Assembly: GCA_965216785.1 (NCBI GenBank)
Contig: OZ244197.1
Span: forward strand, 1,728,001 to 1,792,000
Origin: Thermodesulfobacteriota bacterium
GTDB taxonomy: Bacteria; Desulfobacterota_D; UBA1144; Nemesobacterales; UBA2774
Length of the DNA stretch: 64,000 bases
Reading direction: 5' to 3'
The position numbers and the translations under genes are program-made. Positions 14,951 to 33,389 of the stretch are shown piece by piece (position 1 is the first letter of the stretch; each line of letters opens with the position of its first letter). The notes under the pieces were generated by a model. That model ran no database searches. It saw only the letters and a list, made by a program, of their open reading frames with translations, and was not told the origin of the DNA.

Positions 14951-16006
14951 TTAAGGCTGTATCGCAACTTTTATAACCCCGTCTTCCTGCGACGCGAACA
15001 ATCTGTATGCCTCCTCAATATCATCTAGAGAAAAGCGATGCGTTATGAGCTGTCTCAGATTTACCCTCTCGTTTTTAACCAGGCTCATAAGTCTCCTCAT
15101 TCTTTCCTTCCCGCCCGGACACAGTGTAGAGACAATTTTTTTATCTGCCAAGCCAAAGCCGAAGTCCTGGTTAGGAACCCCGATGTCATGGAGCTCTGTT
15201 GGGTATACGCCAAGGCTTGAGATCGTCCCGCCTACGCAGGTGGATCTTACACAATTCTCAAAGCTCTCCTGAAGCCCTATAGCCTCGATTGCTACATCTG
15301 CCCCTCTTCCCCCAGTTATGTCCATAACAGTATTTACAGGGTCATCGGATTTGTAATCTATTACGATATCAGCTCCCATTTTCTTTGACATTTCCATTCT
15401 CTGAGGCACGGTGTCAACGCCTATGATAAGCGATGCGCCCTTTAATCTTGCCCCAGCTACTGCGCTTAGTCCAATCGGCCCTTGTCCGAATACAACTACT
15501 ATGTCACCCACTTTGATTTCTGCGCTCTCAGCGCCGGATAGCCCGGTGGAAAAGATATCGGTCGTGAATAATACATCCTCATCCGACAGCTCGTCCGGTA
15601 TTCGGGCAAGATTGGCCATAGCGTTTGGGATCTTCACATAATCCGCTTGCGCTCCGTCAATGGTATTCCCCATCTTCCAGCCGCCCAGGAACCCTCCGCA
15701 CTGAGCCCAATGCGCGGAGAGACAGTACTCACACATACCGCAGGGTGTAATGGCATTTATGGCAACACGTTCTCCAAGCTCATAGCCCGAAACTCCCTCT
15801 CCGATATCGTGTATCACTCCAACCGGCTCATGCCCTATAATCTGACCGTGCTCCACCGGGTACTCGCCTCTCATTATGTGAACATCTGTACCGCATATAG
15901 TAGTAAGCGTTACCCTGATAACTGCTTCCCCCTGTCCCGCGACAGGGATAGGGCGATCCTCTAAACCGATTTTATTTACGTCTTTTAATATATTTGCTCT
16001 CATCAT
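14951..16006 (-). CDS. Zinc-dependent alcohol dehydrogenase (MDR family)
   Basis: CGTDVH, GHE, CGMCEYC...C, GQGPIG. Confidence 0.92.
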   Translation of the reverse strand: MMRANILKDVNKIGLEDRPIPVAGQGEAVIRVTLTTICGTDVHIMRGEYPVEHGQIIGHEPVGVIHDIGEGVSGYELGERVAINAITPCGMCEYCLSAHWAQCGGFLGGWKMGNTIDGAQADYVKIPNAMANLARIPDELSDEDVLFTTDIFSTGLSGAESAEIKVGDIVVVFGQGPIGLSAVAGARLKGASLIIGVDTVPQRMEMSKKMGADIVIDYKSDDPVNTVMDITGGRGADVAIEAIGLQESFENCVRSTCVGGTISSLGVYPTELHDIGVPNQDFGFGLADKKIVSTLCPGGKERMRRLMSLVKNERVNLRQLITHRFSLDDIEEAYRLFASQEDGVIKVAIQP

Positions 16007-16062
16007 GCTAAATTACCTCCCCAGTTATTTGGTATTTACCCTTACTTCCTATGTTAATAAAT

Positions 16063-16078
16063 GGCAATTCTTATGCCA
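16063..16078 (-). promoter_or_regulatory. Sigma54 -24/-12 promoter for adh unit
   Basis: TGGCATA-AGAA-TTGCC. Confidence 0.7.
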
Positions 16079-16150
16079 CATGGGCAGCATTCATATGTAG
16101 TTGGATATTATGAACAATCTGAGGTGTAGGAAATCGGTTCTTTATGTTGT

Positions 16151-16167
16151 TGTAAGATTTTAGGACG
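16151..16167. promoter_or_regulatory. Putative enhancer (UAS) site
   Basis: TGTAAGATTTTAGGACG, 73 bp upstream of the adh sigma54 site. Confidence 0.5.
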
Positions 16168-17336: not shown

Positions 17337-17353
17337 TGTATGAAAATCTTACA
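17337..17353. promoter_or_regulatory. Putative enhancer (UAS) site
   Basis: TGTATGAAAATCTTACA, 61 bp upstream of the sigma54 site at 17414. Confidence 0.5.
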
Positions 17354-17528: not shown

Positions 17529-17951
17529 ATGAGAAATTTTGTTTTTGTCACTTTATTCGCTTTTACTTTCTTCTCTGTACTGGGAGTTCAACATACGTAT
17601 GCAGAGAAGGTTCATGTCGTTAGGCTCAATAAATCACATGGGATAGTCGATAAAGAAAGGCCCAATGAGCTCACGGCGTATTTAGTATCGGAAAACGGTA
17701 GCGGGGGAGTGATAGTGACGCCAGTTGAGAGTCCCAAGTTCGGAATTATCAGAACGATTTATGCGAAAGAGAAAAAGGAGCTTCCGGATATCGGGCATCC
17801 TGGCGGCATAAAATCAGGCATTGAGCTTCGTATAGTATTTGAAGACTCCATGGTCGATCTTCCTCCTGAGGCCTGGATCACGCTTAATATCTACCAGTCA
17901 GGCGCAACCGAGATATGTACATACAGTATGGGATCTATTGTATGCGGATAA
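17529..17951 (+). CDS. Secreted hypothetical protein
   Basis: Signal peptide ending TYA; GGGAGGG SD. Confidence 0.7.
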   Translation: MRNFVFVTLFAFTFFSVLGVQHTYAEKVHVVRLNKSHGIVDKERPNELTAYLVSENGSGGVIVTPVESPKFGIIRTIYAKEKKELPDIGHPGGIKSGIELRIVFEDSMVDLPPEAWITLNIYQSGATEICTYSMGSIVCG

Positions 17952-17984
17952 TCATTTCCTGCATAAGTGAGTAAGGAGGCCCCT

Positions 17985-20399
17985 TTGACGAAAGAATCAA
18001 AATATATTCTTTGGTTTAAAGATATCGGCATCGAGGATATCCCTCTTGTTGGCGGTAAGAATGCTTCGCTTGGTGAGATGTACAGGGAGCTTGCGGCAGA
18101 GGGTATAAAGGTCCCCAATGGTTTTGCCGTCACGGCTCACAGTTACAACGATATACTGAGCTCATCAGGAATTTTAAATGATCTGAAAGACGCGATGGAT
18201 GGGCTTGATAAGAACGATGTTGCCGATCTGGCCAGGCGCGGCAAGCACGCCCGCGATTTAATTCTGGGGGCAGGAATTCCAGATGATATTTGGCAGGTGA
18301 TAGGGACTGCGTACGATGAGCTTTGCAAGGAATACGGTGTTAAAACCGATGTTGCGGTAAGGTCCTCGGCCACAGCAGAAGACCTGCCCACCGCTTCATT
18401 CGCGGGTCAGCAGGAGACCTATCTCAACATAAGCGGTAAGAGCGCGCTCAGAGAAGCATGCCTGAAATGCTTTGCGTCCCTCTTTACCGACAGAGCCATC
18501 TCTTACCGTATTGACAACGGCTTTGATCACTTTAAAGTGGCGCTTTCCGTGGGCGTGCAAAAGATGGTGCGCTCGGACCTGGCGACGAGCGGAGTGATAT
18601 TCACACTGGACACCGATACGGGTTTCCGCGACGTAGTCCTGATCACAGCTTGTTACGGGCTTGGAGAAAACATAGTCCAGGGGACAGTTAATCCCGATGA
18701 GTATTACGTGTTTAAACCTACCTTCAGGAGTGGTCATAGGGCAATCATCAAAAAAAACCTAGGTCAGAAGAAGATAAAAATGGTCTATGGTATAGGCGAT
18801 TCAAAGATGCTGACCCGGAATGTGGAAGTGTCGGCGATTGATAGAAGGCGCTTTTGTGTTTCAGACGAAGACCTTTTAAAATTAGCCGGCTATGCAATTG
18901 CAATAGAAGATCATTATACAGAAAAGGCGGGCGAACCGAGACCTATGGATATTGAGTGGGCTAAGGACGGCATGACCGGGGAACTCTTTATAGTTCAGGC
19001 AAGGCCTGAGACCGTGCAGGCGTTAAAAGACAGGGACGTTTTGGAAACATATCGCCTGGACGAAAAAGGGGAGGTCCTTGCTTCGGGTAAGAGCGTTGGA
19101 GAAAAGATAGCGAGCGGTAAAGCAAGGCTAGTGCGCGACTCCGGGAGTCTTTCAATGGTAGAGCCCGGTGAGGTTATTGTTGCCAACACCACTACGCCCG
19201 ATTGGGAGCCTGTGATGAAAACGGCCTCGGCCATCGTAACTAACAGGGGAGGTAGGACTTGTCATGCGGCCATCGTGAGCCGGGAGCTCGGAATACCGGC
19301 TGTTGTGGGCGCGGAGAACGCTACTGAAAATATAGATGACGGAATGCCGGTTACGGTAAGCTGCGCTCAGGGAGAGAAGGGTTTGGTTTATGAGGGTGAG
19401 CTTCCTTTTCATGTTGATAGAGTCACTCTGACAGATCTAAAGCGACCGAAAACAAAGATAATGATGAACCTGGCAAACCCAGAGCTTGCTTTTTCACTGT
19501 CCATGGTGCCAAATGACGGCGTTGGGCTTGCGCGTGTGGAGTTTATAATCACAAGCTACATCAAGATTCATCCCATGGCTCTCTTATATCCGGAAAAAGT
19601 CACAGACCCTAAGGCAATGAATGAAATCTACTATCTGACCTACGGCTATAAAGATAAAAAGTCCTATTTCGTCGACAGACTATCAGAGGGAGTAGGCACC
19701 ATTGCCGCGGCGTTTTATCCAAAACCCGTAATAGTGCGTATGAGCGATTTCAAAACTAATGAGTACGCAAGCCTTGTGGGAGGTGAGTTCTTTGAGCCCG
19801 CGGAGGAAAACCCCATGATAGGTTTTCGCGGAGCTTCACGTTACTACGATGAAAAGTACCGTGAAGGATTTGCGCTCGAATGCGAGGCCATGAAAAGAGT
19901 GCGTGAGGATATGGGACTCACAAATCTTGTGATAATGATCCCGTTTTGCAGAAGGGTGGAAGAGGCTAAAAAGGTGCTGGACGAAATGGCTAAAAACGGT
20001 CTCGTAAGGGGCGAGAGGGAGCTTGAGGTTTACGTGATGTGCGAGATACCGAATAACGTTATCCTGATAGATGAGTTCAGCGAGCTCTTTGATGGGTTTT
20101 CCATAGGCTCAAACGACCTGACGCAGCTTACTCTGGGAGTTGACAGAGACTCTGAGCTAATTGCACACGACTTTGATGAAAGAGACCCGGGTGTTATTAA
20201 GATGATCTCCATGACCATCCAAGGCTCAAAGCGCAATCAGACCCACTGCGGCATTTGCGGGCAGGCCCCGAGTGATTATCCTGAATTTGCGGAGTTCCTG
20301 GTCCGGGAAGGGATTGAGTCAATCTCACTAAACCCTGACTCGGTTATGAAAACTACACTCAGGGTAATAGAAATTGAGGAAGAGCTAGGTAATTTATAA
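17985..20399 (+). CDS. ppsA: Phosphoenolpyruvate synthase
   Basis: VGGKNASLGEM, VRSSATAED, GGRTCHAAI phospho-His, FSIGSNDLTQ, CGQAPSD; TTG start after AAGGAGG preferred. Confidence 0.96.
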   Translation: MTKESKYILWFKDIGIEDIPLVGGKNASLGEMYRELAAEGIKVPNGFAVTAHSYNDILSSSGILNDLKDAMDGLDKNDVADLARRGKHARDLILGAGIPDDIWQVIGTAYDELCKEYGVKTDVAVRSSATAEDLPTASFAGQQETYLNISGKSALREACLKCFASLFTDRAISYRIDNGFDHFKVALSVGVQKMVRSDLATSGVIFTLDTDTGFRDVVLITACYGLGENIVQGTVNPDEYYVFKPTFRSGHRAIIKKNLGQKKIKMVYGIGDSKMLTRNVEVSAIDRRRFCVSDEDLLKLAGYAIAIEDHYTEKAGEPRPMDIEWAKDGMTGELFIVQARPETVQALKDRDVLETYRLDEKGEVLASGKSVGEKIASGKARLVRDSGSLSMVEPGEVIVANTTTPDWEPVMKTASAIVTNRGGRTCHAAIVSRELGIPAVVGAENATENIDDGMPVTVSCAQGEKGLVYEGELPFHVDRVTLTDLKRPKTKIMMNLANPELAFSLSMVPNDGVGLARVEFIITSYIKIHPMALLYPEKVTDPKAMNEIYYLTYGYKDKKSYFVDRLSEGVGTIAAAFYPKPVIVRMSDFKTNEYASLVGGEFFEPAEENPMIGFRGASRYYDEKYREGFALECEAMKRVREDMGLTNLVIMIPFCRRVEEAKKVLDEMAKNGLVRGERELEVYVMCEIPNNVILIDEFSELFDGFSIGSNDLTQLTLGVDRDSELIAHDFDERDPGVIKMISMTIQGSKRNQTHCGICGQAPSDYPEFAEFLVREGIESISLNPDSVMKTTLRVIEIEEELGNL

Positions 20400-20470
20400 A
20401 AAACTAAAAAAGCAGTGACAGACCGTAAATGTTTTAAAATTGGGAATAATAATTTAAGGAGGGCTTTCTG

Positions 20471-20818
20471 ATGGTAAAAAATTATCCTGAGTCTTACAGG
20501 TCTTTACTGGATATGCAGAAAAAACTTTCAGCCGAGCTGCCGGGTCCAATGAAAAGCTTTGGTCGTCTGCACCAAGATGTGATAACAGATGCCGCACTGG
20601 ATACGAAAGCCAAGGAGCTCATTGCATTAGGTATTGGGATAGCAGTCAGATGCGATGGCTGTATCTCATATCACATTCATGATGCACTTGTGGCGGGAGC
20701 AACGCGAGAGGAAATAATAGAGACAATCGGGGTTGCAATACTCATGGGCGGCGGGCCTTCAATGGTTTATGGATGCGAGGCACTCGAAGCGTTGGACCAA
20801 TTCGATAAAGAGAATTAA
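20471..20818 (+). CDS. Carboxymuconolactone decarboxylase / AhpD-family protein
   Basis: KELIALGI..RCDGCI.YH...A...GAT.EEI, MGGGP. Confidence 0.88.
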   Translation: MVKNYPESYRSLLDMQKKLSAELPGPMKSFGRLHQDVITDAALDTKAKELIALGIGIAVRCDGCISYHIHDALVAGATREEIIETIGVAILMGGGPSMVYGCEALEALDQFDKEN

Positions 20819-20850
20819 ATTCTCGGTTTCTATTTTATAATCTCTTAATA

Positions 20851-22020
20851 ATGAATGAAATATCTCTGGTTCTCCTAATTATCGGGGCTTTGTTACTTAC
20901 AGGATATTCCGCACACATAGTTGGTAAACGTACGCATGTACCCAGAGTGACTCTTTTACTATTATTAGGTCTTATCTCAGGTCCCCACTTACTGGATTTA
21001 ATTCCCAAAACAATTGAAGAATGGTTCCCCTTTATAGCTCATATGGCTCTTGCCATGGTCGGCTTTTTATTAGGAGAAAGTTTCTACGGTAAGAATTTGA
21101 AGTCTACCGGAAGGGACGTACTTTGGATTTCTATAGCGCAAACGGTGGTGGTCTCACTCTTAGTTTTTACTATTCTCTATATATCGGGAGCAGGGCTGGC
21201 ATTATCGCTTATACTTGCGGGGATTGCGCCCGCTACCGCTCCTGCGGCGACCATCGACCTGGTACAAGAGAGTAGGGCGAAGGGCCCGCTTTCCGATACC
21301 TTGCTCGGAGTTGTGGCGCTCGATGATGCGTGGGGAATTATTTTATTCAGCGTAATGCTTATACTGGCAGAGGGATCTGTTAACGGATCAATATCAGAAA
21401 TGCATTTCCTTCACGGATTATGGGAAGTTTTTGGTGCTGTAGTTTTGGGAGCAGTTTTGGGAGTTCCGATGGCTTGGCTTACGGGCAGGGTCAGGACGGG
21501 AGAGCCTACACTGCTTGAAGCCGCCGGTTTTGTATTTGTCTGCGGAGGGCTGGCGCTTTACCTGAACGTTTCATTTTTGCTGAGCTCTATGGTATTGGGC
21601 GCCGTCGTTGCCAATAAAGCCAAGCACCATACTAAACCATTTCGGGATATAAAGGGAATAAGCGAACCGTTCCTTGCACTGTTCTTTTTCTTGGCTGGTT
21701 ATGAGTTTGAGCTGGAAAGCTTTTATGTTATCGGCGGCGTTACAGTTACCTACATTATTACGAGATTAATAGGGAAGGTTCTTGGAGGCCTGGCCGGTGG
21801 TAAAATGTCAAAAGCACCTCAGGTAATCACACGCGGTATAGGATGGTGTTTAGTGCCTCAAGCAGGAGTTGCCGTAGGAATGGCTTTACTCGTGGTTGAA
21901 AGATTGCCTGCTCTTGGAATCAAGATTCTGCCGGTTGTAATAGCGAGCACGATTATATTTGAGATTATCGGCCCGATACTTACTTTATGGCAGCTCAGAA
22001 AAGCGGGTGAAGTTGAGTAA
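20851..22020 (+). CDS. Cation:proton antiporter (CPA2)
   Basis: About 12 TM helices, ATAPAAT, ALDDA, PQAGVA. Confidence 0.88.
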   Translation: MNEISLVLLIIGALLLTGYSAHIVGKRTHVPRVTLLLLLGLISGPHLLDLIPKTIEEWFPFIAHMALAMVGFLLGESFYGKNLKSTGRDVLWISIAQTVVVSLLVFTILYISGAGLALSLILAGIAPATAPAATIDLVQESRAKGPLSDTLLGVVALDDAWGIILFSVMLILAEGSVNGSISEMHFLHGLWEVFGAVVLGAVLGVPMAWLTGRVRTGEPTLLEAAGFVFVCGGLALYLNVSFLLSSMVLGAVVANKAKHHTKPFRDIKGISEPFLALFFFLAGYEFELESFYVIGGVTVTYIITRLIGKVLGGLAGGKMSKAPQVITRGIGWCLVPQAGVAVGMALLVVERLPALGIKILPVVIASTIIFEIIGPILTLWQLRKAGEVE

Positions 22021-22145
22021 CGGCGAATCATTAATACTGGTATTATCGGGTTTTATCAACAATACTAAATGTATGAAACGAACTATGAGTACATCATATA
22101 TCAACCATTTGTCTTAAATAAGAAAATACACAGGAGTATTATTTA

Positions 22146-23051
22146 ATGCGGATTAAAAAAATTGTGTGGGCAACGGACGGGTCGAATGAAGCGCAAGAAG
22201 CGCTCAAATATGCGGTTTATCTGGCTAAGGAATATTCCGCAGAGATTTTGGGTGTATATGTAAGCACGAAGAAAGTTAAAAGTATCTCCTCAGAATTCTA
22301 TAGGTTGATGCAGGAGCAATTTAGCGATCTGGCCGAAACCGAAGATAAAGAATTTGAAGCTGATTTTGCCTCCACACAGGCAAGTATGAAATCCCAGGGC
22401 GTTCGTTTTGCCGGTACAGTTCTTAAAGGGGATGCAGCTTTAAAGATTGTAAATTTTATACACAAAGAAAACGCAGACCTTGTAGTGATCGGGACCCGGG
22501 GGCACGGGCTTATTGATAAAATGCTCATTGGAAGCACTACGCTTAAAGTCCTGAAAAAGTCTAGCATACCTGTCTTTGCCTTTAAAAAGAGTGAAAGAAA
22601 AAGAGCTAGTATTAAAAATATTCTCGTTCCGGTGGATGTGTTTCAACATAAGGGTCATGCGCTTGAGTATGCCGTCGACTTAGCCACTGTTCTGAACGCG
22701 CAAATACACGCGGTATATTCCATTCGGCTTGCTCGCCACATTTATGCTGTGCCGAGCATTCTGAACGAGCTCATTAAACACTCTAAAGCGGAGTTAATAA
22801 AAAGGGTAGAAGAAATAAAACTAAAACACAGGCTCCGGGGCAAAGATGCTGGTGAGCTCAGGATTAGCACACAAGTGATCCATGGCGTAAACCCGGCTAT
22901 AGCCATTACTGACTATGCTTCTACAAAGAATATTGATCTAATTGTTATAAACATGAACTCAAGAAGCGGAATTAAGAAATTGATTCTGGGCAGCACTACG
23001 GAAAAGATTGTTCGCTCTTCTCATTGCTCGACTCTCGTCGTAAGACCGTAG
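22146..23051 (+). CDS. Tandem universal stress protein
   Basis: Two USP domains: WATDGS..GTRG...LIGSTT and ILVPVD..LGSTTEKIVR. Confidence 0.92.
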   Translation: MRIKKIVWATDGSNEAQEALKYAVYLAKEYSAEILGVYVSTKKVKSISSEFYRLMQEQFSDLAETEDKEFEADFASTQASMKSQGVRFAGTVLKGDAALKIVNFIHKENADLVVIGTRGHGLIDKMLIGSTTLKVLKKSSIPVFAFKKSERKRASIKNILVPVDVFQHKGHALEYAVDLATVLNAQIHAVYSIRLARHIYAVPSILNELIKHSKAELIKRVEEIKLKHRLRGKDAGELRISTQVIHGVNPAIAITDYASTKNIDLIVINMNSRSGIKKLILGSTTEKIVRSSHCSTLVVRP

Positions 23052-23080
23052 TGGAAAAATCCGATCCACAACACCCCAAG

Positions 23081-23097
23081 TGTATCGGATTCTTACA
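23081..23097. promoter_or_regulatory. Putative enhancer (UAS) site
   Basis: TGTATCGGATTCTTACA, 74 bp upstream of the sigma54 site at 23171. Confidence 0.5.
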
Positions 23098-23170
23098 TAG
23101 TCCCAAGCTTTTCAATTAGAAGAATAAATAATATTTATTAATGCAGGCTGGTTACAACAAGTTAATCCTA

Positions 23171-23186
23171 CGGCACGCAGATTGCA
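23171..23186 (+). promoter_or_regulatory. Sigma54 -24/-12 promoter for CBS gene
   Basis: CGGCACG-CAGA-TTGCA. Confidence 0.75.
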
Positions 23187-23237
23187 CAACGTATAAATAA
23201 ATGTTGGTAAAAATCTATGTGGTAGGAGGTAACGGTT

Positions 23238-23678
23238 ATGAGTTTAGGAAATATGTGTAGAAAAGATGTTGTTACCGTGGGCCCGGAAACGATGGTAAGT
23301 GATGTGACAAAGCTCATGGAAGAGAAAAACATCGGAAGTGTGATTGTTAAAAATATTATAGAGGGCGCTGACAGAGAAAAATTTGGCATCGTAACGGACA
23401 GGGATATAGCGCTCAGGGTTATTAATAATAACCTTGATCCCGCAAACACCCCGATTGACGATGTGATGACTCAAAATCTGGTATTGACCCTTAGAGAGGA
23501 CATGGGGCTTTTTGAAGCTCTCGAGCTGGTAAGAAAGAGTGCTATCAGAAGATTCCCGATCGTAGACATCGACGGTAACTTAAAAGGAATTCTCACACTC
23601 GATGATATAATCAGGCTATTAGGTAAAGAGATGGCCGATGTAGCTAATATTATAGAAAATGAGGGGCCGCTTCTGTAA
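23238..23678 (+). CDS. CBS-pair domain protein
   Basis: GIVTDRDI, VMT, IRRFPIVD, GILTLDDI. Confidence 0.92.
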   Translation: MSLGNMCRKDVVTVGPETMVSDVTKLMEEKNIGSVIVKNIIEGADREKFGIVTDRDIALRVINNNLDPANTPIDDVMTQNLVLTLREDMGLFEALELVRKSAIRRFPIVDIDGNLKGILTLDDIIRLLGKEMADVANIIENEGPLL

Positions 23679-23704
23679 GAGCGTTTCTATATACTCAATT
23701 TCTG

Positions 23705-24895
23705 TCATACTATTTGGAACTGTCCTTTCAGTACTTTTTCCCACATCTCAGGCATTTCGTCGAGCATCTTTTCGGTAAGGAGTCCTATAGCATCTTCGTC
23801 GTAGTCTTTACCTTTAAGCTTTATATCGAGTGCCATGGGCTCGTTTATGGGTTTTCCTATTTGGGACACAATATAACAATATGCCTCTTCCGCATAGCCT
23901 TTTTGAATGATCAGTCGGCACAGCTCATTAGCGAATAAGTTGTAGATTTTTCCTACATGGCTAACGGGGTTTTTACCGGCCACTGCTTCGAGCGTCATGG
24001 GCCTGTATGGTGTAATCAATCCGTTTGCCCTGTTTCCCCTGCCTACCTGACCGTCATCTCCCCCCTCGGCGCTTGTTCCCGACACAGTGAGGTATACGCT
24101 TTCACTAGCGTAGTCATCGGCTGCGTTGATTTTTAGCTCTGTCCCTTCTCGGATACAATCCTGCGCTTCCAGGAAATCCTTAATTTCATTAATTTTCTGT
24201 ATATAATCAGTTATCGATATTACGTATTTATCAACGATCGCGATTGCAACGGTAAGTGTTATTTTCTCTTTATATCTTACTCCCATAACCTTTATATCTT
24301 CGCCTATGTAGGGATAGGCCCTTTTGGTTTCGGGATTATTTAGCAATTTCTCGGCCTTTAGTACAGTTTCCTCGAGAGTGTCGTGAGGATAAAATCCCGT
24401 TCCTATGGACGTATCGTTTGACAGGGGGATATCTCCTTTGCCAAAACGCTCGAACAGCTCTATTAGGTCTTTGCTCCCGGATCTGATCTTAACGTCGATT
24501 TTAATATGATCTTCTACGTCAAGGTGGCGGACATTTTTACTTATGGATTTCCTGACCGCATCTCTAGCTATTTCGTCTATGGGTAGGGCTATTCCTCTCT
24601 TCTCTTTTACTGCTCTTCCCGCAATGGTTAGCTCTATGGGCTTTACTATTCTGCCGCCGTTGTATGAGGGCTTTGACGCTCCTCCGACAAGAAGCGCTTT
24701 ATCGACATTGTGGTGCATGATTGAGCCGAATTCTTCGAGATAGTATTTACTTATAGCGATCGAAGTATCTTCGGCAATGAGATCACATATCGTATCGGGA
24801 TGTCCAAGTCCCTTCCTTTCGACAATCTCTATATCTCGGTCCTGAGCGAGCGTGTCGGTGAGTGGACCTACGAATATATTGTTATTCATATTCAT
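23705..24895 (-). CDS. mat: Archaeal-type S-adenosylmethionine synthetase
   Basis: [54 protein letters not shown]. Confidence 0.92.
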
Positions 24896-24904
24896 GAGTC
24901 ATAT

Positions 24905-24920
24905 TGCAAGACATATACCA
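24905..24920 (-). promoter_or_regulatory. Sigma54 -24/-12 promoter for mat
   Basis: TGGTATA-TGTC-TTGCA. Confidence 0.7.
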
Positions 24921-25003
24921 GTAAGAAATAGTAACACAAGCGGAATTAAGAGCGCTCTGGCGATATATCTTTTGTGAGAGGAAAAATGAGAGAAATTGTC
25001 AGA

Positions 25004-25020
25004 TGTCAGATTTATAGACG
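25004..25020. promoter_or_regulatory. Putative enhancer (UAS) site in the mat/pcm divergent region
   Basis: TGTCAGATTTATAGACG; an extra half-site TGTAAGATT at 25101. Confidence 0.45.
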
Positions 25021-25141
25021 GAGTATTCGTCTTTATTTGAAACAAAGGCTGAGGGTAGGGTATATAAAATTGAACCTCTTTTCAGCTATCTGCCTGTAAA
25101 TGTAAGATTGCTCGGAATTCTCTCCAATAACTGGATGCTCC

Positions 25142-25157
25142 TGGCATCAATATTGCT
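25142..25157 (+). promoter_or_regulatory. Sigma54 -24/-12 promoter for pcm operon
   Basis: TGGCATC-AATA-TTGCT. Confidence 0.75.
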
Positions 25158-25206
25158 CATTTAACTATTAGAGGTAGTAGGCACTGGACCTAAGAGGAGG
25201 CTTTAA

Positions 25207-25920
25207 ATGGAGCTATTATTTGTAGCTGTTTCTTTGTGTCTGTTGCTGGCCGCGGCTTTTAATGCCGATAAGGACGGCGGGACATATTCCCAAAGGCGGT
25301 GGGATATGGTCGAGTCTCAGATTGTCTCCAGGGGGGTTAGCGGAGCCCGGTTAATTGAGGCAATGCTTAAAGTTCCGAGGCATAAGTTCGTTCACCAGGA
25401 TTTTAGACACCAGGCGTACCTTGATTGCGCTCTTCCGATCGAGATGGGTCAGACTATATCTCAGCCATACATAGTCGCCTACATGACAGAGCTCCTAAAC
25501 CTGAAGGAAGGGAATAAGGTGCTTGAAATCGGTACAGGCTCGGGTTATCAGTCCGCTATACTCGCTGAGATGGGCTGCGAAGTATATACGATAGAGATAA
25601 TAGAGCCTCTTTCAAAAAGCGCTAAAGAAGTTTTAGATGAATTAGGTTATAAGAATATTCACTATAAAGTCGGCGACGGATACGAGGGGTGGAAAGAGCA
25701 CGCTCCCTACGACGGGATTGTCGTAACAGCTGCTCCGCCAGAGATTCCCGAGCCGTTAAAAGCGCAGCTCAATGAAAGGGGTAGGATGGTAATACCTGTT
25801 GGCGAGAATATTCAGGAGCTCGTCCTTATTAAAAATACTAAAACGGGGTTGGTTGAAAAAAGGGTAACCCCGGTACGCTTTGTTCCTATGGTGGGAGAGG
25901 CCCGGAAATCTCATCATTAA
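25207..25920 (+). CDS. pcm: Protein-L-isoaspartate O-methyltransferase
   Basis: VPRHKFV, GQTISQPY, LEIGTGSGYQ, APYDGIVVTAA, VRFVPM. Confidence 0.95.
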   Translation: MELLFVAVSLCLLLAAAFNADKDGGTYSQRRWDMVESQIVSRGVSGARLIEAMLKVPRHKFVHQDFRHQAYLDCALPIEMGQTISQPYIVAYMTELLNLKEGNKVLEIGTGSGYQSAILAEMGCEVYTIEIIEPLSKSAKEVLDELGYKNIHYKVGDGYEGWKEHAPYDGIVVTAAPPEIPEPLKAQLNERGRMVIPVGENIQELVLIKNTKTGLVEKRVTPVRFVPMVGEARKSHH

Positions 25921-25975
25921 GAGAGGGTTGTAGCGTAGAGACAGGGGGATAAAAACACAATTCGGAGGTACTAAA

Positions 25976-26455
25976 ATGAGTATCTTGAAGAGGTTAAAAA
26001 AATATCTGGATGAGAATAATATCAAATATATAGTGATAGCTCACTCCCCTTCCCATACGGGACAGGAGCTTGCCGAGACTGTGCACATTTCCGGCAAGGA
26101 GATAGCAAAAACAGTTATTCTTAAAACAGAGGATCAATACGTGATGGCGGTGCTGCCGGCTTCACGGATGATAGACGTTGAGTATCTCGAAGAATATATA
26201 GGAGCTCAGGGGCTCAGGCTTGCGGAAGAGAGTGAATTTAATGAATTATTCCCTGACTGTGAGCTTGGAGCGATGCCTCCATTCGGCAATTTATACGGGA
26301 TACCCGTTTACTCGGCCTCAGCCTTATCCGATGATGAGGAAATCGTTTTCAACGCCGGCACTCATACGGACGCCATTAGAATGAGCTACAAAGATTACGC
26401 GGATTTGGTTAAGCCTACGGTGATTCATTTTTCAGAACCGCTTTACACGCAGTAA
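25976..26455 (+). CDS. YbaK/EbsC-family aminoacyl-tRNA deacylase
   Basis: IAKTVIL (catalytic Lys), FPDCELGAMPPFG, FNAGTH. Confidence 0.9.
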   Translation: MSILKRLKKYLDENNIKYIVIAHSPSHTGQELAETVHISGKEIAKTVILKTEDQYVMAVLPASRMIDVEYLEEYIGAQGLRLAEESEFNELFPDCELGAMPPFGNLYGIPVYSASALSDDEEIVFNAGTHTDAIRMSYKDYADLVKPTVIHFSEPLYTQ

Positions 26456-26558
26456 TAAGCTGTGGTCATCAAGGCGTGAATTGGGTGCAGGGGCGGATAC
26501 GTGATTGATGGCCGATATGCATGGCGCTTGACTAAATAGATCGAAGAGAGGGAAAATC

Positions 26559-27758
26559 ATGGAATTTAACAACAGAATAAAGAGCCTTTCAGATTATGAG
26601 TATCAAAATAACCCGGTAACTTCCCTATACCTTAAATTGGGACCTCAGGATAGACAGAACCTAAAGTATAAATTGACTGTAAAGAACCTGGTAAGAGATA
26701 CAAGGGAGGCTCTCGGCAAACGAGGGTTAAGTAAGTCCGCATTAGACTCCATAGATTCTGATTTTTCTAAAATTACGGGATACGTGGAGAAAACAGCCGA
26801 TATCTCCGAATGCCGGGGTTTAGCTATATTTTCATCATCAGGTGAAGAATATTGGGAGGTATTTAAGCTCCCCGAAGTGTACCGAAACCAGCTAGTAGTG
26901 GACAGAACGCCTCTACTTGGCCAGCTGATAAAAATAAACGAGGAATACAGTGATATCGTCACGGTATTCGTGGATAGAAAAAAGGCAAGGATTTTCAGAC
27001 TCGACCCCGAAGGTTCGAATGAGATTTTGGATTATTTCTATCCGGCGGCATCGAGGACCAGGAAATTCAGCTCACCGGAAGGCACATTCAAACAGAGGGT
27101 TTCACAGGGAGAGGGAACGGGCAGTATGACACAGAGTTACGGGGAGCACAGCTTTCAAAGAACAATTGAAAACGAGGTGCATCAGCACTATAAGTACACC
27201 TCAGATAAGGTATTTGAGTATTATAAAGAACATAAATTCAAGTGGCTTATCGTAGGAGGTACGGAAAAGAATATCTCAGAGTTCACTGAGCATCTGCATA
27301 CGTATCTCGGGGACATTTTGGCGGGCACAATTACTGCAGACGTGGATAAAATAAAGCCTTATCAGGTTATGGATGCAGCATTGGAAGCGCTGCAGTCAAA
27401 GAAAATAGAGAGGCTACAAAGATTACTTGCCGAATTTGAGGAGAAAAAAGGCAAGGGATTAACCGTAGAAGGTGTTGATTCTACATTAAGCGCTCTATCA
27501 GCAGGTCAATTAAGAGTTCTCTTTGTAGAAGAAGATTTCAACATCCCGGGATTTGTGTGTCCTGAGACAGGGGTGCTGTTAACAGAAGAAAACAAAGAGC
27601 TTTGCCCGGAAGACGCGGAGCCCAAATACGTTGTCGATGTAGTGGACCTTTCCATTGAGGAAGCCTTCAGGCAAAAAGCGGAGATAGAGATTTTGCGCAG
27701 TGAAGAATCTAAGAAGAAAATAAGCGGGATGGCGGGAATTCTGAGGTTTAAACAATAG
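26559..27758 (+). CDS. Bacterial archaeo-eukaryotic release factor-like (baeRF/Balon-like) protein
   Basis: VTSLYL, GLAIF, VDRKKARIF, LIVGG, eRF1 domain 3 with CPET..CPED and GMAGILRF; no GGQ or NIKS. Confidence 0.82.
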   Translation: MEFNNRIKSLSDYEYQNNPVTSLYLKLGPQDRQNLKYKLTVKNLVRDTREALGKRGLSKSALDSIDSDFSKITGYVEKTADISECRGLAIFSSSGEEYWEVFKLPEVYRNQLVVDRTPLLGQLIKINEEYSDIVTVFVDRKKARIFRLDPEGSNEILDYFYPAASRTRKFSSPEGTFKQRVSQGEGTGSMTQSYGEHSFQRTIENEVHQHYKYTSDKVFEYYKEHKFKWLIVGGTEKNISEFTEHLHTYLGDILAGTITADVDKIKPYQVMDAALEALQSKKIERLQRLLAEFEEKKGKGLTVEGVDSTLSALSAGQLRVLFVEEDFNIPGFVCPETGVLLTEENKELCPEDAEPKYVVDVVDLSIEEAFRQKAEIEILRSEESKKKISGMAGILRFKQ

Positions 27759-27823
27759 GAAGGGTGATAACTCTTTAACCATCAAAACATCCCGAAACGT
27801 GAAGTAAGCGGGGTTTCGCGAAA

Positions 27824-28492
27824 ATGATGTTAAGAGCATACATCAGATTAGTTGTTTACATTATACTGGTAAGCGTAATTCTCTTTTTTTCAGCCGGGCG
27901 TATAGACTGGCTTGCTGCTTGGGTATTTCTGGTTATATATACGGCGATTATTATTATAGGCGTTACTTTTGTCGATCCAGAACTGTTAAAAGAACGAAGC
28001 AAGATAGGGCCAGGGGCTAAGAGGTGGGACATTGTAATAGCCAGCGTCGCAGTCGTCTTTTTGTTCCCGGCTACGTTTCTTGTTGCGGGTCTGGACGCCG
28101 GTCGTTACCATTGGTCGCCTCCCTTCCCGGTATGGCTTCAGATCGCTGCTTTTCTCGGATTCCTGGCAGGAAGCGCTCTGCAGTCGTGGGCAATAATTAC
28201 AAACAAGTTCTACTCGTCAGTCGTTCGGATTCAAACCGATAGGGGCCATTACGTTATCACAGACGGGCCGTACAGATACGTGCGCCATCCCGGTTACACA
28301 GGAGTTATCGTGACATCATTTGCTATCCCGCTGATGCTGGGATCGCTATGGGCTCTTGTTCCCGCGCTGATAGGGGACTGCATTCTCGTTATCCGCACCT
28401 TACTAGAAGACAATACTCTAAAGAGTGAGCTTGCAGGATATACGGAATACGCCGCTAAGACCCATTACCGTCTAATACCGGGTATCTGGTAG
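27824..28492 (+). CDS. Isoprenylcysteine carboxyl methyltransferase-family membrane protein
   Basis: TM helices, ITDGPYRYVRHPGY, RT..ED..L, YRLIPGIW. Confidence 0.88.
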   Translation: MMLRAYIRLVVYIILVSVILFFSAGRIDWLAAWVFLVIYTAIIIIGVTFVDPELLKERSKIGPGAKRWDIVIASVAVVFLFPATFLVAGLDAGRYHWSPPFPVWLQIAAFLGFLAGSALQSWAIITNKFYSSVVRIQTDRGHYVITDGPYRYVRHPGYTGVIVTSFAIPLMLGSLWALVPALIGDCILVIRTLLEDNTLKSELAGYTEYAAKTHYRLIPGIW

Positions 28493-28517
28493 CAGACATT
28501 TAAAATACTTACCCTAA

Positions 28518-29639
28518 TCAGGATTGTCCTACGGTTATGCTCTGACGGAATCTAAATAGCGCCGCGCTAAAGTAGAGCGATCCGATAAGGATCAAAATTA
28601 AAAAATCACCCCAGACCACTTCTACGCCCGCGTCGCGGAACAGCACGGCTTGGGCGTAGTTTACAAAATGTGTGGATGGTGAAAAGTACATAACATACCG
28701 CAGTACCGCAGGCATGCTGTCCATCGGGGTATAGACCCCCGAGAGGAGCATCATTACCAAAAAGACCGGCAGTGCGAGAAGGCCGAACTGCGGCATGGAG
28801 CGTGCGATAGTCGCAAGTAATATCCCGAGCGAAGTGACCGAGAATAGGAAGGCTATAGTGCCCGCGATAAACAAGGGGATTGAGCCCGCGATATGGACTT
28901 GAAGCAGTCCTTGTACGACTAAATATAATGAGGCAATGGCCGCAGCTACAATAACTAGCCCGTTTGCCCATATCTTCGCTGCCATTATGTCAAAAGGCCT
29001 TAGCGGCATTGCTAAAAGGTGCTCTAGAGTGCCGTGCTCACGCTCCCTTATCACAGCGGCGCCGGTAAGGATTATTGTCAGCAGCGTCATGTTGTTTATG
29101 ATTTCCATTATGCTCAGAAACCATACTGATTCAAGGTTCGGATTGAACTTAGATCTGATTACTATATTTGCCGCTTGCCCGGGGTCGTTGTAACTCATGA
29201 AGTCCCCTATCTCGTCCGCTATGATGCTTTGTATATACCCGGCGCCTCTGCCCGCTATACTCATTGCGGTCGCGTCCACGTTTATCTGAATTTCAGGACT
29301 CTTTTGTGCAAGCAGGTCCTCCTGGAAGTCCGGGGGGATATCTATTACAAAACTGTACTTTCCGTAATCCATAGCGCGGTCGATCTCGCTCACGGAAATC
29401 AGAGTCGGCGGCTTAAAATACGGCTCGAGCAAGGCGTCGTGTATCCGGCTCGAGAGGGTCGATCTGTCTTCATCCACTATGCCGATGGCGGCGTTCTCAA
29501 CGTCGGTTCCCGACTGGGAGGCCTCGTATACGCCAAACGATAGGGAATAGACGATCAGGAAAACCAGAAATAGATCGTAGCGCAAGCTGAATAGCTCTTT
29601 TATGCCCAGTCTGAAAATGTTATCTATTCTCTGTAGCAT
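28518..29639 (-). CDS. yhhJ: ABC-2 permease (YhhJ-like)
   Basis: GIKEL, VDEDRS, REREHGTLEHLL. Confidence 0.85.
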   Translation of the reverse strand: MLQRIDNIFRLGIKELFSLRYDLFLVFLIVYSLSFGVYEASQSGTDVENAAIGIVDEDRSTLSSRIHDALLEPYFKPPTLISVSEIDRAMDYGKYSFVIDIPPDFQEDLLAQKSPEIQINVDATAMSIAGRGAGYIQSIIADEIGDFMSYNDPGQAANIVIRSKFNPNLESVWFLSIMEIINNMTLLTIILTGAAVIREREHGTLEHLLAMPLRPFDIMAAKIWANGLVIVAAAIASLYLVVQGLLQVHIAGSIPLFIAGTIAFLFSVTSLGILLATIARSMPQFGLLALPVFLVMMLLSGVYTPMDSMPAVLRYVMYFSPSTHFVNYAQAVLFRDAGVEVVWGDFLILILIGSLYFSAALFRFRQSITVGQS

Positions 29640-29641
29640 AG

Positions 29642-32398
29642 TTAGCTCTCCTGAGCCTTTAATAGTAATAGGCCGAATGTTAGGTATGCGAATATAATGA
29701 TTACAAGAGCTAAATAGTTAATCGCGAGATCTCCAAAGTCGAGTGCTTTTGTAAAAGTTCCCATGCTGATGAGCTGAAAATATCCGTACGGGAATATAAG
29801 ACCCATTGCCTTTGCGCCCCCTGAAAGAGAGGATACCGGCGTAAAGTAGCCCGAGAAGTTAATTGCCGGGGTAACCGTGATAATAGCAGTTGCGAATATG
29901 GCGGCAATCTGTGTCCTTACCAAGGTGGAAACCATCATACCAAAGCCTGTAGTAGCAACTACATAGAAAAGAGCGCCCAAGGTGAGCGCGGCGAAGCTTC
30001 CCTTAACCGGGACTTTAAACAAAAAGAGGGATAGCAGCACAAGAGTGGCGAAATTAATCATAGCAAGCAGCACGTACGGGGCCTGCTTGCCCAGTAGAAA
30101 TTCGAGTTTTGTAACGGGGGTAGCATAGAAATTGGTAATCGAGCCTAGCTCTTTCTCGCGCACTACGCCTAGGGCCGTCATCATTGCCGGAATAAAAACG
30201 AGAAGTATCATGATCGTACCCGGTACCATTGCGAATACGCTTTTAAAATCCTGGTTGTAGCGAAAGCGCGTCTGTAAGCTGACGGGCAGGGTAGAGAGCC
30301 CCCGTCCATGATCTTTCATGGCTTGCTCTTCAAGGTAGCTTCGGTGAACGCCCTCTACATACCCGCGGCTCGTTTCAGCCCTATAGGGCATAGCGCCGTC
30401 GAGCCACACGCCCACTTCCGGCGTAGCCCCTCTCTTCAGGTCTTTCCCGAAGTCGGGGGGCATCTCAATCGCAAGTCTGAGCTCGCCGCTCCTGAGCCTA
30501 TGCTCAAGCTCTCTCTGGTCATAAATTGGAGGCGTCTCTTCAAAGTAGCGGGAGCCGGAAAAATTCTCGAGGTAGCGCCTGCTTTCGGGTGTGTTATCTC
30601 TGTCGAGCACGGCATAGGGGAGGTTTTCTACATCGAAAGTAATGCCGTATCCGAACACTATCATTAATATGATGGGGCCGAGCATAGCGAATGCCAGACG
30701 GATGGGGTCGCGCTTGATCTCCATTGCTTCGCGGCGCGCGTATGCCCACATACGCCCGAAATTCAGGATGCCGGGTCTTTGTTCTTTTCGGTCGTCGGTG
30801 TGGTGAGACGATATTTTCTCAGTTGTCTCTTGGTCGGTATTCTGTAAAATATCACCTTCGGCCTCTTCAAGATAGGCTATAAACGTATCTTCCAGGTTCT
30901 CGGAGGATTTACTCTCAATTAGCTCCCGGGGGCTTCCCTGCGCCAGCACTTTGCCCGCGTGCATTAATGATATGCGGTCGCACCGCTCCCCCTCATTCAT
31001 GAAATGTGTGGATATAAATATAGTTACGCCATCCTCTCTTGAAAGCTTAATCAAAAGCTCCCAGAAACCGTCTCTCGCAATCGGGTCGACACCCGAAGTA
31101 GGCTCGTCCAGAATCAGCATCCGGGGGGCGTGGATAAGAGCGACCGCGAGAGATAGCCGCTGCCTAATACCGAGCGGCAGCTTTTCGGGAAGCTCATTTT
31201 CAGATCCTTCAAGGCCGAAACGATCGATCATCTCCGATACCCGCTCGGGGATATATTCCCTGGGAAGATGAAAAAGGCGGGCGTGAAGTTCGAGGTTCTG
31301 CTTCACGGTGAGCTCGTTATACAGGGAAAAAGACTGAGACATATAACCGACCTGTTTTCTTATCTCCAAATCTCTTGCGTCTACGCTTTTCCCAAACAGA
31401 TAAGCTTCACCTTCAGATACGGGCAAAAGCCCGGTGAGCATTTTCATGGTCGTCGTTTTCCCGCAGCCGTTAGAGCCAAGGAAACCGAATATCTCGCCTT
31501 GCTCGATACGGAAGCTTACTTCGTCTACAGCGGTAAAGCTGCCAAAACGCTTGGTGAGATTCCTGGCTTCAATGGCTGTCTCGCCGACGTGATTTTGGTA
31601 CGGAGTAATCTCTAATTTTTTATAATACTTGCTCTCATCCTCGGGCATGAGATGTATAAACGCCTCTTCAAGGCTACTGGAGCCGTTTTGCTGTTTCAGC
31701 TGCTCTGGACTTCCGGTTTCGAGCACCCTTCCGTCGTTCATGGCGATGAGCCAGTCAAACCCCTCTGCCTCTTCCATATAGGCTGTAGCTATAATTACGC
31801 TCATTCCCTCACGCCTGTGACGGATGCGCTCGATTAGCTCCCAGAACTGACGTCGTGACAGGGGGTCGACTCCTGTTGTGGGCTCGTCTAGGATCAGGAG
31901 CGTAGGGTCGTGAATAAGAGCGCAGCAAAGACCGAGTTTCTGCTTCATACCCCCGGAGAGCTTGCCCGCGGGACGCGTGGAAAAAGGAGCGAGCCCGGTG
32001 CCTGTGAGAAGTTCCTTGATTCTCCATTCACGCTCTTTAGCAGACTGTCCGTAAAGGCGGCCGAAAAAATCCACATTATCGTAGACCGAGAGCGTCGGGT
32101 ACAGGTTCTTTCCGAGGCCCTGGGGCATGTAGGCTATGCCCGGGCAAATATCGGCTCTGTTCGAGGACACGGACATGTCCGACCCCAGTACCTCCACCTT
32201 ACCTCTTTGGATCTTGCGAACGCCGGATATAAGCGAGAGCATTGTGGACTTGCCCACACCGTCAGGGCCGATAAGCCCCGCCATGCATCCTGAGGGTATC
32301 TCTATACTTACATTGTCCAAAGCTTTGGTTTTGCCGTAGATTTGCGAGACGGCGGTGAGGCGCGCTACAGGTGCAGTCACATAAGAGCGTTCGCTCAT
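29642..32398 (-). CDS. rbbA: Ribosome-associated ATPase / ABC transporter RbbA
   Basis: Two ABC domains ([30 protein letters not shown]) fused to a permease. Confidence 0.92.
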
Positions 32399-32399
32399 T

Positions 32400-33389
32400 T
32401 TAATATCCGGTGTGCCGATCTAAATTTTCAGGCCACCGAGCTTTCGGGTCGACTTTAACGAATGCCATGCCCGGGAGCCCGGGTTTTATCCAGACCTCGT
32501 ATTTTTCTACAGTTTCGGGCGCTATGCTGACCTTCACGCGGAAAACCAGCTTTTGGCGCTCCTTGGCGGTTTCAACTTCTTTTGGTGTGAACTGAGCTTT
32601 GGAGGCGACGAAGGACACCCTGGCGGGAATTGCGAGCTCGGGAGCCGCGTCAAGCACTATCCTGCTCTCAGCGCCAATTGCCAGTATGCCCGCATCTTCC
32701 ATAGGCAGGAATACGCTCATATAAACATCCGAAAGGTCGATAATAGTGAGCACTTTTCCTCCGGCTGAGATAACTTCGCCGGGCTCGGCGAGACGGTACT
32801 GGACGCGGCCGCCGAAGGGGGTTTTGAGGACGCTGTCTCTTATGTCTACTTCGAGCCTTTCAGTTTGGGCCTTCGCAGCGTCAATCGCGGCTTCCGCATT
32901 TGCAACGTCAGCCCTTGCCGCGTCGCACATGGCTTTTGCCACTTCGTATTTTGCTCTATCCTGATCGAGTTTTTGTAGCGAGATGTTTCCGTTTTCATAA
33001 AGGCGTTTTGACCGGAGTAAATCTCTTTTTGTTAACTGGCATTCACTTTCACGCTGCGCGACTACCGCGAGCGCTGTACTGCGCTGTTTCTCCGCGCTGA
33101 TTTCAGATGCTTTAGCCTCCCTCAGCTGAGCTTCGAGAGATTCGGTATCCATCCGTGCTACAACCTGACCGGCTTGTACGTCGTCACCTTCATCTACCAA
33201 AATCTCAGAAACTCTCCCATAAAACTTTGTGGCAATGTCGACCTCGGTTGCTTCAAGGCGGCCATTCCCAGACGCGATACCCACCAGGGGCGGTACTCTA
33301 TAGTACTCCCACCATACGTAGGAGCCCGCAATCGCCGTAATAATCACCAGCGCCCCAATCACCGTAAAACTTAACTTGCTCTTAGTCAT
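32400..33389 (-). CDS. yhiI: HlyD-family membrane fusion protein (YhiI-like)
   Basis: [38 protein letters not shown]. Confidence 0.88.

What the first reader, a model, noticed from the sequence alone, without database searches (positions are those of the whole stretch)
23705..28492. Divergent SAM-supply / protein-repair / translation-hibernation module
Seen: back-to-back sigma54 promoters drive an archaeal-type SAM synthetase one way and pcm - YbaK deacylase - GGQ-less aeRF1-like protein - ICMT-family methyltransferase the other way. Known: Pcm uses SAM to repair isoAsp in ageing proteins, YbaK proteins deacylate mischarged tRNA, and Balon/Rv2629 aeRF1 homologues occupy the ribosomal A site in dormancy. 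Inference: a co-induced kit that makes its own SAM, repairs aged proteins, clears tRNAs and parks ribosomes. I do not know of this combination being described as a system. It is the top candidate in the window.
Basis: partly seen in the sequence, partly recalled or inferred. Interest (0 to 1): 0.82.

Follow-up and report, generated by a model that had tools for sequence, protein, structure and literature searches.

The report
Low-oxygen regulon genes, clustered locally
Five intact genes for SAM synthesis, likely protein repair, likely tRNA editing and likely ribosome parking share a conserved promoter signature with the high-affinity oxidase and nitrous-oxide reductase genes of the same bacteria, so they are likely one locally gathered piece of a larger low-oxygen response rather than a self-contained system.

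Summary
The genes and both sigma54 sites are as described. The five-gene block is not a widespread system. All five genes sit together in 3 of 120 genomes of the phylum (Ca. Dadabacteria by homologue names), and none of 46 other bacterial loci holds two of the four partner genes. What is conserved is the promoter. A 17-bp palindrome (TGTC-N9-GACA, window 25004-25020) lies between the two sigma54 sites. A matrix trained only on relatives' MAT-pcm spacers finds it upstream of sigma54 sites before the cbb3 oxidase operon (26 of 29 orthologues), the nosZ operon (11 of 29), and a FixL-type heme-PAS kinase plus sigma54 activator operon (20 of 27); background is 14 of 2664 genes. No CRP/FNR regulator was found. 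Best reading: part of a low-oxygen, sigma54-driven regulon, like DosR or Myxococcus NmpRSTU but with another sensor and motif. The MAT and pcm are second copies. The aeRF1-like protein is baeRF family 15, Balon-like in fold but untested. YbaK and ICMT substrates are unknown. No expression data.

The parts
23705..24895 (-). Archaeal-type SAM synthetase (accessory; housekeeping metK elsewhere)
   Evidence: conserved GHPD, DDG and GKN columns
24905..24920 (-). sigma54 -24/-12 site for MAT; predicted +1 lies within a few bases of the start codon
   Evidence: kept in 8 of 22 spacers
25004..25020 (.). Palindromic upstream activator site TGTC-N9-GACA type (score 9.8), 84 bp from the MAT site and 138 bp from the pcm site
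25142..25157 (+). sigma54 -24/-12 site for pcm-ybaK-baeRF-icmt
   Evidence: 22 of 22
25207..25920 (+). pcm, protein-L-isoaspartate O-methyltransferase; second copy, 55% identical to the other pcm of the genome; hydrophobic N-terminus shared with housekeeping copies
25976..26455 (+). YbaK/ProXp (INS superfamily) protein of unassigned subfamily
26559..27758 (+). Bacterial aeRF1 homologue (baeRF-1 family 15 by listed homologue), Glu196 where related proteins have the catalytic Gln, long flexible loop 163-195; Balon-like fold
27824..28492 (+). ICMT/PEMT-family membrane methyltransferase, substrate unknown
17337..17353 (.). Same palindrome (score 11.9), 77 bp before the sigma54 site at 17414-17429 that heads the orphan-ppsA-CMD-antiporter-USP run
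17529..23678 (+). Flanking run: 140-aa orphan, ppsA, CMD/AhpD, cation/H+ antiporter, tandem USP, CBS pair (CBS has a sigma54-like site at 23171 but a poor palindrome, score 1.4)
14951..16167 (-). Zn alcohol dehydrogenase with a sigma54-like site near 16078 and palindrome at 16151-16167 (score 13.0): same regulon
28518..33389 (-). Convergent HlyD-RbbA-ABC2 operon; sigma54-like site at 33555-33570, palindrome weak (3.0); recurs beside the block

Best explanation
The five genes are likely one piece of a low-oxygen regulon of Ca. Dadabacteria, gathered next to each other in two genera of one family. Shown: two divergent sigma54 sites share a central 17-bp palindrome, and the same palindrome-plus-sigma54 pair precedes the cbb3 oxidase, nosZ, heme-synthesis, USP and ADH genes and an operon of GNAT, PAS-PAS histidine kinase and GAFTGA-bearing response regulator (G000 C1:2723618-2727199). 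Inferred: when O2 falls, the kinase's FixL-type heme-PAS domain (His98 and Arg118 match the FixL heme His and distal Arg) switches on, phosphorylates the regulator, which binds the palindrome and opens the sigma54 promoters. The cell would then raise high-affinity and N2O respiration and, from this locus, extra SAM (MAT), isoAsp repair of long-lived proteins (Pcm), clearing of some mischarged tRNA (ProXp-like), and non-catalytic occupation of the ribosomal A site (baeRF, Gln replaced by Glu). The individual biochemical roles follow from family knowledge and were not tested; the MAT-to-Pcm supply link rests on conserved divergent pairing.
For: Palindrome found in relatives' MAT-pcm spacers. With a matrix trained on 12 such sites only: 21 of 76 intergenic sigma54-like sites of G000 score >=8 against 3.0% of 5000 random intergenic positions; 26 of 29 ccoI orthologues, 25 of them at 66-68 bp; 11 of 29 nosZ operons; 20 of 27 kinase operons, with a sigma54 site in 27 of 27 (hand count); 7 of 18 YbaK-like genes that are not in the block; 7 of 57 baeRF upstream regions at >=7, all unlinked or promoter-first copies; background 14 of 2664 ORFs. 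Targets annotated by Pfam and ORFs. The kinase PAS domain's PDB hits are mainly FixL and DosP; His kept in 28 of 28 and Arg in 28 of 29 orthologues. The kinase is in 46 of 120 genomes, including 23 of 23 with the MAT, 33 of 33 with ccoI and 30 of 31 with baeRF; it lies within 20 kb of ccoI in 19 of 33 (hand count). No CRP/FNR HTH over cut-off in G000. Island pcm copies carry the sigma54 site (12 of 12) and the 17 unlinked copies examined do not.
Against: No expression, binding or heme data; no RNA run holds the region. The regulator is one of 15 activators in the genome and is tied to the motif only by autoregulation and linkage. I wrote the seed consensus by eye after seeing six G000 promoters, so the G000 enrichment is partly circular; the ccoI, nosZ, kinase and YbaK tests are not. 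The window's own palindrome is moderate (9.8), the CBS and HlyD promoters score 1.4 and 3.0. 18 of 29 nosZ operons lack the pair. baeRF in the trmI locus (0 of 17) and MAT in families f7/f5 show no such promoter directly upstream, so membership is not universal. Genomes are kin, so counts overstate independence.
Confidence: 0.72

Rival explanations
1. A dedicated, self-contained kit: the MAT feeds Pcm and ICMT, while YbaK and baeRF act together to clear tRNA and park ribosomes; the five genes are selected as a unit.
For: One predicted operon with 55-103 bp gaps; MAT-pcm divergent pair in 13 of 14 family loci; 27 of 57 metagenome baeRF loci are of the island type, 21 with pcm, 13 with YbaK, 16 with ICMT, 6 with all (loci overlap); pcm next to MAT in 2 distant bacteria, once with ahcY (L072, L073); ybaK-pcm adjacent in G028.
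Against: All five together in 3 of 120 genomes; MAT and baeRF within 10 kb in 5 of 21 genomes that have both; members are dropped or swapped singly; 0 of 46 outside bacterial MAT loci hold two partners.
Confidence: 0.12
2. Same regulon, but the signal is not O2: the activator answers NO/N2O, redox or energy state, or a different sigma54 activator binds the palindrome.
For: nosZ and an nnrS neighbour are among or near the targets; heme-PAS domains can bind NO and CO (own knowledge); 15 candidate activators; the top PDB hit of the PAS domain is an unnamed kinase domain (10jx).
Against: Tightest footprint is on the cbb3 operon; FixL ligand residues conserved; the kinase operon carries the site itself and is linked to ccoI.
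Confidence: 0.12
3. Chance patchwork of mobile stress genes without common control.
For: Accessory archaeal-type MATs occur in varied plasmid and island contexts; patchy presence (23 of 120).
Against: Conserved sigma54 sites and palindrome at fixed spacing across genera.
Confidence: 0.04

Closest known systems
Myxococcus xanthus NmpRSTU oxygen-utilisation regulon (PMC11841059; passages and section 22 read)
   Same: NtrC-like activator with sigma54, heme sensor kinase, autoregulation; targets CBS, USP, P-type ATPase plus cbb3 oxidase, heme synthesis.
   Different: NmpU senses with a protoglobin in a multi-step relay and NmpR binds GCGCA-N5-TGCGC; here a FixL-type PAS kinase, one adjacent regulator, TGTC-N9-GACA, and added targets nosZ, MAT, pcm, YbaK-like, baeRF. 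Orthology to NmpR was not tested.
Mycobacterial DosR regulon and Burkholderia cenocepacia lxa locus (PMC3721108; passages and part of Table 4)
   Same: Low-oxygen gene set of USPs, Hsp20, cation ATPase, ADH, class II RNR, ABC transporter; Rv2629/Msmeg1130 are hypoxia-induced (PMC10901736). Relatives' MAT loci hold USP, CBS, HPF, RNR II.
   Different: Those use DosR- or Anr/FixK-type regulators; no MAT, pcm or YbaK-like gene was seen in the passages read.
FixLJ-FixK (rhizobia)
   Same: Heme-PAS kinase with the same ligand residues; cbb3 as target.
   Different: Output is a sigma54 activator rather than FixJ then FixK (own knowledge); no CRP/FNR protein found in G000.
Balon / Rv2629 / Msmeg1130 hibernation factors (PMC10901736; passages)
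   Same: Three-domain aeRF1 fold, top Foldseek hits (TM 0.70), no GGQ or NIKS, stress-operon context.
   Different: 15-17% identity; below all three NCBIfam cut-offs; no HP motif; remnant zinc-ribbon cysteines; about 20-residue loop insertion; in family f7 it sits among tRNA/rRNA modification genes.
baeRF-1 clade, family 15 (Burroughs and Aravind, PMC6514570; passages and supplement parts)
   Same: A 49%-identical homologue (A2V51_00380, P0181) is listed under family 15; HPF neighbourhood and non-catalytic A-site role proposed there.
   Different: YbaK, PCMT, tRNA_edit, AdoMet_Synth and USP do not occur as words in that supplement.
INS superfamily trans-editing proteins (PMC11295145; passages)
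   Same: PF04073 fold.
   Different: Not YbaK proper by TIGR00011; closest solved structure is an uncharacterised protein (3op6); ProXp subfamily not assigned.

Membership tests
Archaeal-type MAT | Family model over cut-off, catalytic motifs intact | tested here: met
   PF01941 480 bits, NF003366 509>435; invariant columns; PDB alignment
Pcm/PIMT | Equivalog model over cut-off | tested here: met
   NF001453 248.7>188; TIGR00080 221.5>159
YbaK (Cys-tRNAPro deacylase) | TIGR00011 cut-off | tested here: not met
   47.8 against 153.25
INS/ProXp superfamily | tRNA_edit domain | tested here: met
   PF04073 98.4 bits; atlas
INS/ProXp superfamily | Deacylase activity and substrate | not testable with these tools
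   needs assay
baeRF-1 clade | Three-domain aeRF1 architecture in a bacterium that is homologous to listed members | tested here: met
   homologue listed under family 15; Pfam family-10 hit (51 bits) is likely a cross-hit
Balon-family hibernation factor | No NIKS and no GGQ | tested here: met
   Glu at the Gln position in 57 of 58 clade sequences
Balon-family hibernation factor | HP motif at the decoding-centre loop | tested here: not met
   No His-Pro in the protein; Gly-Pro (P29 invariant) aligns with Asp-Pro of Msmeg1130, so the family itself varies
Balon-family hibernation factor | NCBIfam NF052287/8/9 cut-offs | tested here: not met
   78/330, 44/480, 36/320
Balon-family hibernation factor | bL27 trap, EF-Tu(GDP)-binding hairpin, A-site binding | not testable with these tools
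   loop 163-195 has pLDDT<50; needs cryo-EM
ICMT (isoprenylcysteine methyltransferase) | NF040696 cut-off | tested here: not met
   40.6 against 160; only the Pfam superfamily is met
NmpRSTU regulon | GCGCA-N5-TGCGC site and protoglobin sensor | tested here: not met
   site here is TGTC-N9-GACA; kinase has PAS domains only
NmpRSTU regulon | sigma54 activator controlling cbb3, USP, CBS, heme genes | tested here: inconclusive
   sites and targets met by sequence; control itself not shown
FixL-type O2 sensor | Heme-ligating His and distal Arg in PAS | tested here: met
   alignment to FixL; 28 of 28 and 28 of 29; residue roles are from own knowledge
FixL-type O2 sensor | Heme binding and O2-switched kinase activity | not testable with these tools
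   needs protein
FNR/FixK/DosR regulon | CRP/FNR-type regulator in the genome | tested here: not met
   no PF13545 match over cut-off in a 92% complete genome; a DosR-type regulator was not searched

The most novel reading that the evidence does not exclude
Ca. Dadabacteria run their whole low-oxygen programme without FNR/FixK, through a FixL-type heme kinase wired directly to a sigma54 activator with its own palindrome; this one switch couples clade II N2O reduction and cbb3 respiration to a translation-shutdown set (second SAM synthetase, second Pcm, an unassigned ProXp deacylase, and a family-15 baeRF with Gln-to-Glu that is a new type of A-site hibernation factor recruited from a tRNA-modification locus).
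Probability: 0.4. Interest if true: 0.68.

Novelty: new variant of a known kind. Interest (0 to 1): 0.5.

Why it matters
It gives a testable regulator, site and target list for an uncultured lineage that often carries nosZ (42 of 120 genomes), so it bears on when these bacteria consume N2O. It also places three poorly understood proteins under a predicted low-oxygen switch: accessory archaeal-type SAM synthetases in bacteria that already have MetK, an unassigned ProXp editing protein, and family-15 baeRF. That gives each a condition in which to look for function.

Tried and rejected
No RNA holder was listed for window 20000-29600; this is no evidence on expression and no reads were laid. Sigma70 scan was at chance level, 26 against 25.5. 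Wide recurrence of the block was rejected: 0 of 46 non-Aquificota bacterial loci outside the phylum (22 GTDB, 17 plus 2 from phylum samples, 5 of 44 plasmid records), 0 of 9 Aquificota and 0 of 48 archaeal loci have two of pcm/YbaK/baeRF/ICMT (many contigs are short, ICMT and YbaK were sought with single seeds, and the annotation of L183 lists two ICMT-family genes more than 10 kb from the MAT that my seed missed). The GTDB scan returned only 80 of 594+ relatives. Archaeal-type MAT was over cut-off in 3 of 401 and 19 of 301 genomes in two other phyla. The pcm hydrophobic N-terminus as a module-specific feature was rejected: housekeeping copies have it and some island copies lost it. Family-10 assignment was dropped after the supplement check. 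The careful baeRF tree did not finish; the quick tree was used and no clade test was run, so direction of gene movement is not shown. No close orthologue of the regulator in 5 outside genomes (best 43%). Desulfovibrio activator motifs could not be compared because they are in figures (PMC3333781, PMC4641369; passages only). Literature searches listed no paper on this gene block or on a Dadabacteria oxygen regulon; the library lacks most subscription papers, one Balon supplement was an unreadable scan and its datasets were not held. Earlier findings: none. The 140-aa orphan gave no Pfam or atlas hit. No complex prediction was run.
Full report
Observation. All five ORFs are intact at the stated coordinates and match the families named, with different strength: MAT and pcm pass curated cut-offs, while the YbaK, Balon and ICMT equivalog models are all failed and only the wider Pfam families are met. 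The two sigma54 sites are real consensus matches, 3 in the window against 0.49 expected, in a genome with 15 strong sigma54 activators. Homologue names point to Ca. Dadabacteria; that is an inference from names. The block is flanked by ppsA-CMD-antiporter-USP-CBS on one side and an HlyD-RbbA-ABC2 operon on the other.

The genes are spare copies or unusual family members. The genome has a normal metK beside ahcY and a second pcm, 126 of 230 aligned residues identical. Five distant bacteria with an archaeal-type MAT also all have metK (5 of 5). The aeRF1-like protein models at pLDDT 82.8; its top structural matches are Msmeg1130 and Balon on ribosomes (TM 0.70 and 0.59), and eRF1/aRF1 score TM 0.47 or less. 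Related proteins carry GGWSQ in the catalytic loop; this clade has a roughly 20-residue insertion and Glu at that place (57 of 58 sequences). A 49% identical homologue is listed under baeRF-1 family 15 in the supplement of PMC6514570, whose text proposes a non-catalytic A-site role for Gln-less families. It works like Balon by fold and context, but it fails the HP motif and the NCBIfam models, so I do not file it as Balon.

Is the block a recurring system? Among 120 genomes of the phylum, MAT is in 23, baeRF in 31, the YbaK-like gene in 22, pcm in 55. MAT and baeRF lie within 10 kb in 5 of the 21 genomes with both, all in genera g1 and g2; all five genes are together in 3. The stable core is MAT divergent from pcm, in 13 of 14 loci of family f1 and 0 of 8 in f7/f5. 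Of 57 metagenome baeRF loci, 27 are of the island type, 14 lie in an MFS-trmI-truD-baeRF-nuclease-rsmG locus, and 16 elsewhere (loci overlap). G000 has that same locus with only 49 bases between trmI and the nuclease gene, and island copies nest with other f1 copies in the quick tree. This fits relocation of baeRF into the island, but the direction is not shown. Outside the phylum, 46 bacterial MAT loci gave pcm 2, YbaK-like 1, baeRF 2, and none with two partners. One has ahcY-pcm-MAT next to an HPF gene. Plasmid MATs sit among ppsA, USP, P-type ATPase, ppk2 and fixJ genes. So the genes belong to a rotating pool, and the five-gene order is local.

The promoter is the conserved part. The pcm-side sigma54 site is in 22 of 22 spacers and the MAT-side site in 8 of 22. 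A palindrome TGTC-N9-GACA stood out in these spacers. I built a matrix from 12 sites of relatives only, selected with a consensus written by eye after I had seen six G000 promoters. In G000, 21 of 76 intergenic sigma54-like sites have a site scoring 8 or more, against 3.0% of random positions. The targets include ccoI-ccoNO-ccoP-ccoG, hemY-type and radical-SAM heme genes, USPs, a Zn-ADH in this window and the ppsA run; the cytochrome c-nosZ-nosD-nosL operon scores just under the threshold at 7.7. Independent tests in other genomes: ccoI 26 of 29, nearly all at 66-68 bp; nosZ 11 of 29; YbaK-like genes away from the block 7 of 18, background 14 of 2664 ORFs; baeRF 7 of 57 at 7 or more, five of them one clade, and 0 of 17 in the trmI locus. 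Island pcm copies have the sigma54 site (12 of 12), unlinked ones do not (0 of 17). Against: the window's own site is moderate (9.8) and the CBS and HlyD promoters lack a good one.

Candidate regulator. One target operon encodes a GNAT protein, a PAS-PAS kinase and a GAFTGA-bearing response regulator. The first PAS domain aligns with FixL and DosP heme domains and keeps the His in 28 of 28 and the Arg in 28 of 29 orthologues. Its own promoter has a sigma54 site in 27 of 27 and the palindrome in 20 of 27. The kinase is present in 46 of 120 genomes, among them all 23 with MAT and all 33 with ccoI, within 20 kb of ccoI in 19 of 33, and was not found in families f8, f9 and f6, which also gave no MAT, baeRF or ccoI match. 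Kin are not independent. No CRP/FNR protein was found in G000. That this pair reads the palindrome and senses O2 is inferred, not shown.

Mechanism, committed. Low O2 likely activates the kinase; the phosphorylated activator binds the central palindrome and drives both divergent promoters together with the respiratory operons. From this locus the cell would gain SAM, isoAsp repair, tRNA editing and A-site parking for a period of slow or arrested growth. Confidence 0.72 for the regulon reading; a dedicated five-gene kit 0.12; another signal or activator 0.12; chance 0.04.

Comparison. The closest described system is Myxococcus NmpRSTU (PMC11841059, passages and section 22): sigma54 activator, heme sensor, cbb3, USP, CBS and heme targets, but a protoglobin sensor and a different site. 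DosR and lxa share the gene pool (PMC3721108), and Balon genes are already known to lie in stress operons (PMC10901736). My ten literature searches listed nothing on this block or on a Dadabacteria oxygen regulon, within a library that lacks most subscription journals.

Verdict. Observation confirmed; interpretation partly supported. A new variant of a known kind (low-oxygen dormancy regulon), with a new site and a plausible new sensor-activator wiring. Interest 0.5.

Noticed in passing
G000 C1:2723618-2727199 (L238, L250): GNAT, FixL-type PAS-PAS kinase and sigma54 activator operon with its own palindrome, between a nosZ operon and near the cbb3 operon; candidate master low-oxygen regulator.
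   Followed up: yes
window 24889-24920: The predicted sigma54 start for MAT falls within about 0-7 bases of the ATG here and in L021/L107, with no clear ribosome site: possibly a leaderless message; L014 has a normal leader.
   Followed up: partly
window 17529-17951: 140-aa protein with a signal-like N-terminus and no family hit; in 12 of 27 island loci it is present, often between ybaK and baeRF.
   Followed up: partly
window 25207-25270 and L283-L310: Most pcm copies of this phylum begin with an acidic residue and a 15-20 residue hydrophobic stretch, maybe a membrane anchor; lost in some island copies (remnant still visible in L014, L128).
   Followed up: partly
G000 C1:1857274-1862776: MFS-trmI-nuclease-rsmG-OCD-MTAP locus lacking the truD and baeRF genes that family f7 has at this spot.
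   Followed up: partly
window 28518-33389; L197, L198, L219: RbbA-type ABC operon (ribosome-associated ATPase model, 1501 bits) recurs next to baeRF, also in two genomes of another phylum.
   Followed up: no
G000 C1:2359012-2371844 and 235690-239400: Two more DosR-like islands (USPs, Hsp20, AAA_33, VIT1, cation ATPase, CBS, ADH) with the same promoter pair at some genes.
   Followed up: partly
G002:C84, G009:C116, G097:C195, G098:C145, G099:C85: A further pcm domain inside ORFs of about 670 aa: a fused form.
   Followed up: no
G007:C15:605651-606870: Only a short MAT-like remnant beside an island pcm that keeps its sigma54 site and palindrome: likely MAT loss.
   Followed up: no
L072 7996-11179: Gammaproteobacterial ahcY-pcm(short)-MAT run beside HPF, glycogen phosphorylase and an alternative ATP synthase operon.
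   Followed up: no
window 70-4197: 1375-aa malate synthase / isocitrate lyase fusion.
   Followed up: no
window 36599-63332: Large exopolysaccharide cluster led by a NusG-family gene, next to a PAS kinase and two response regulators.
   Followed up: no
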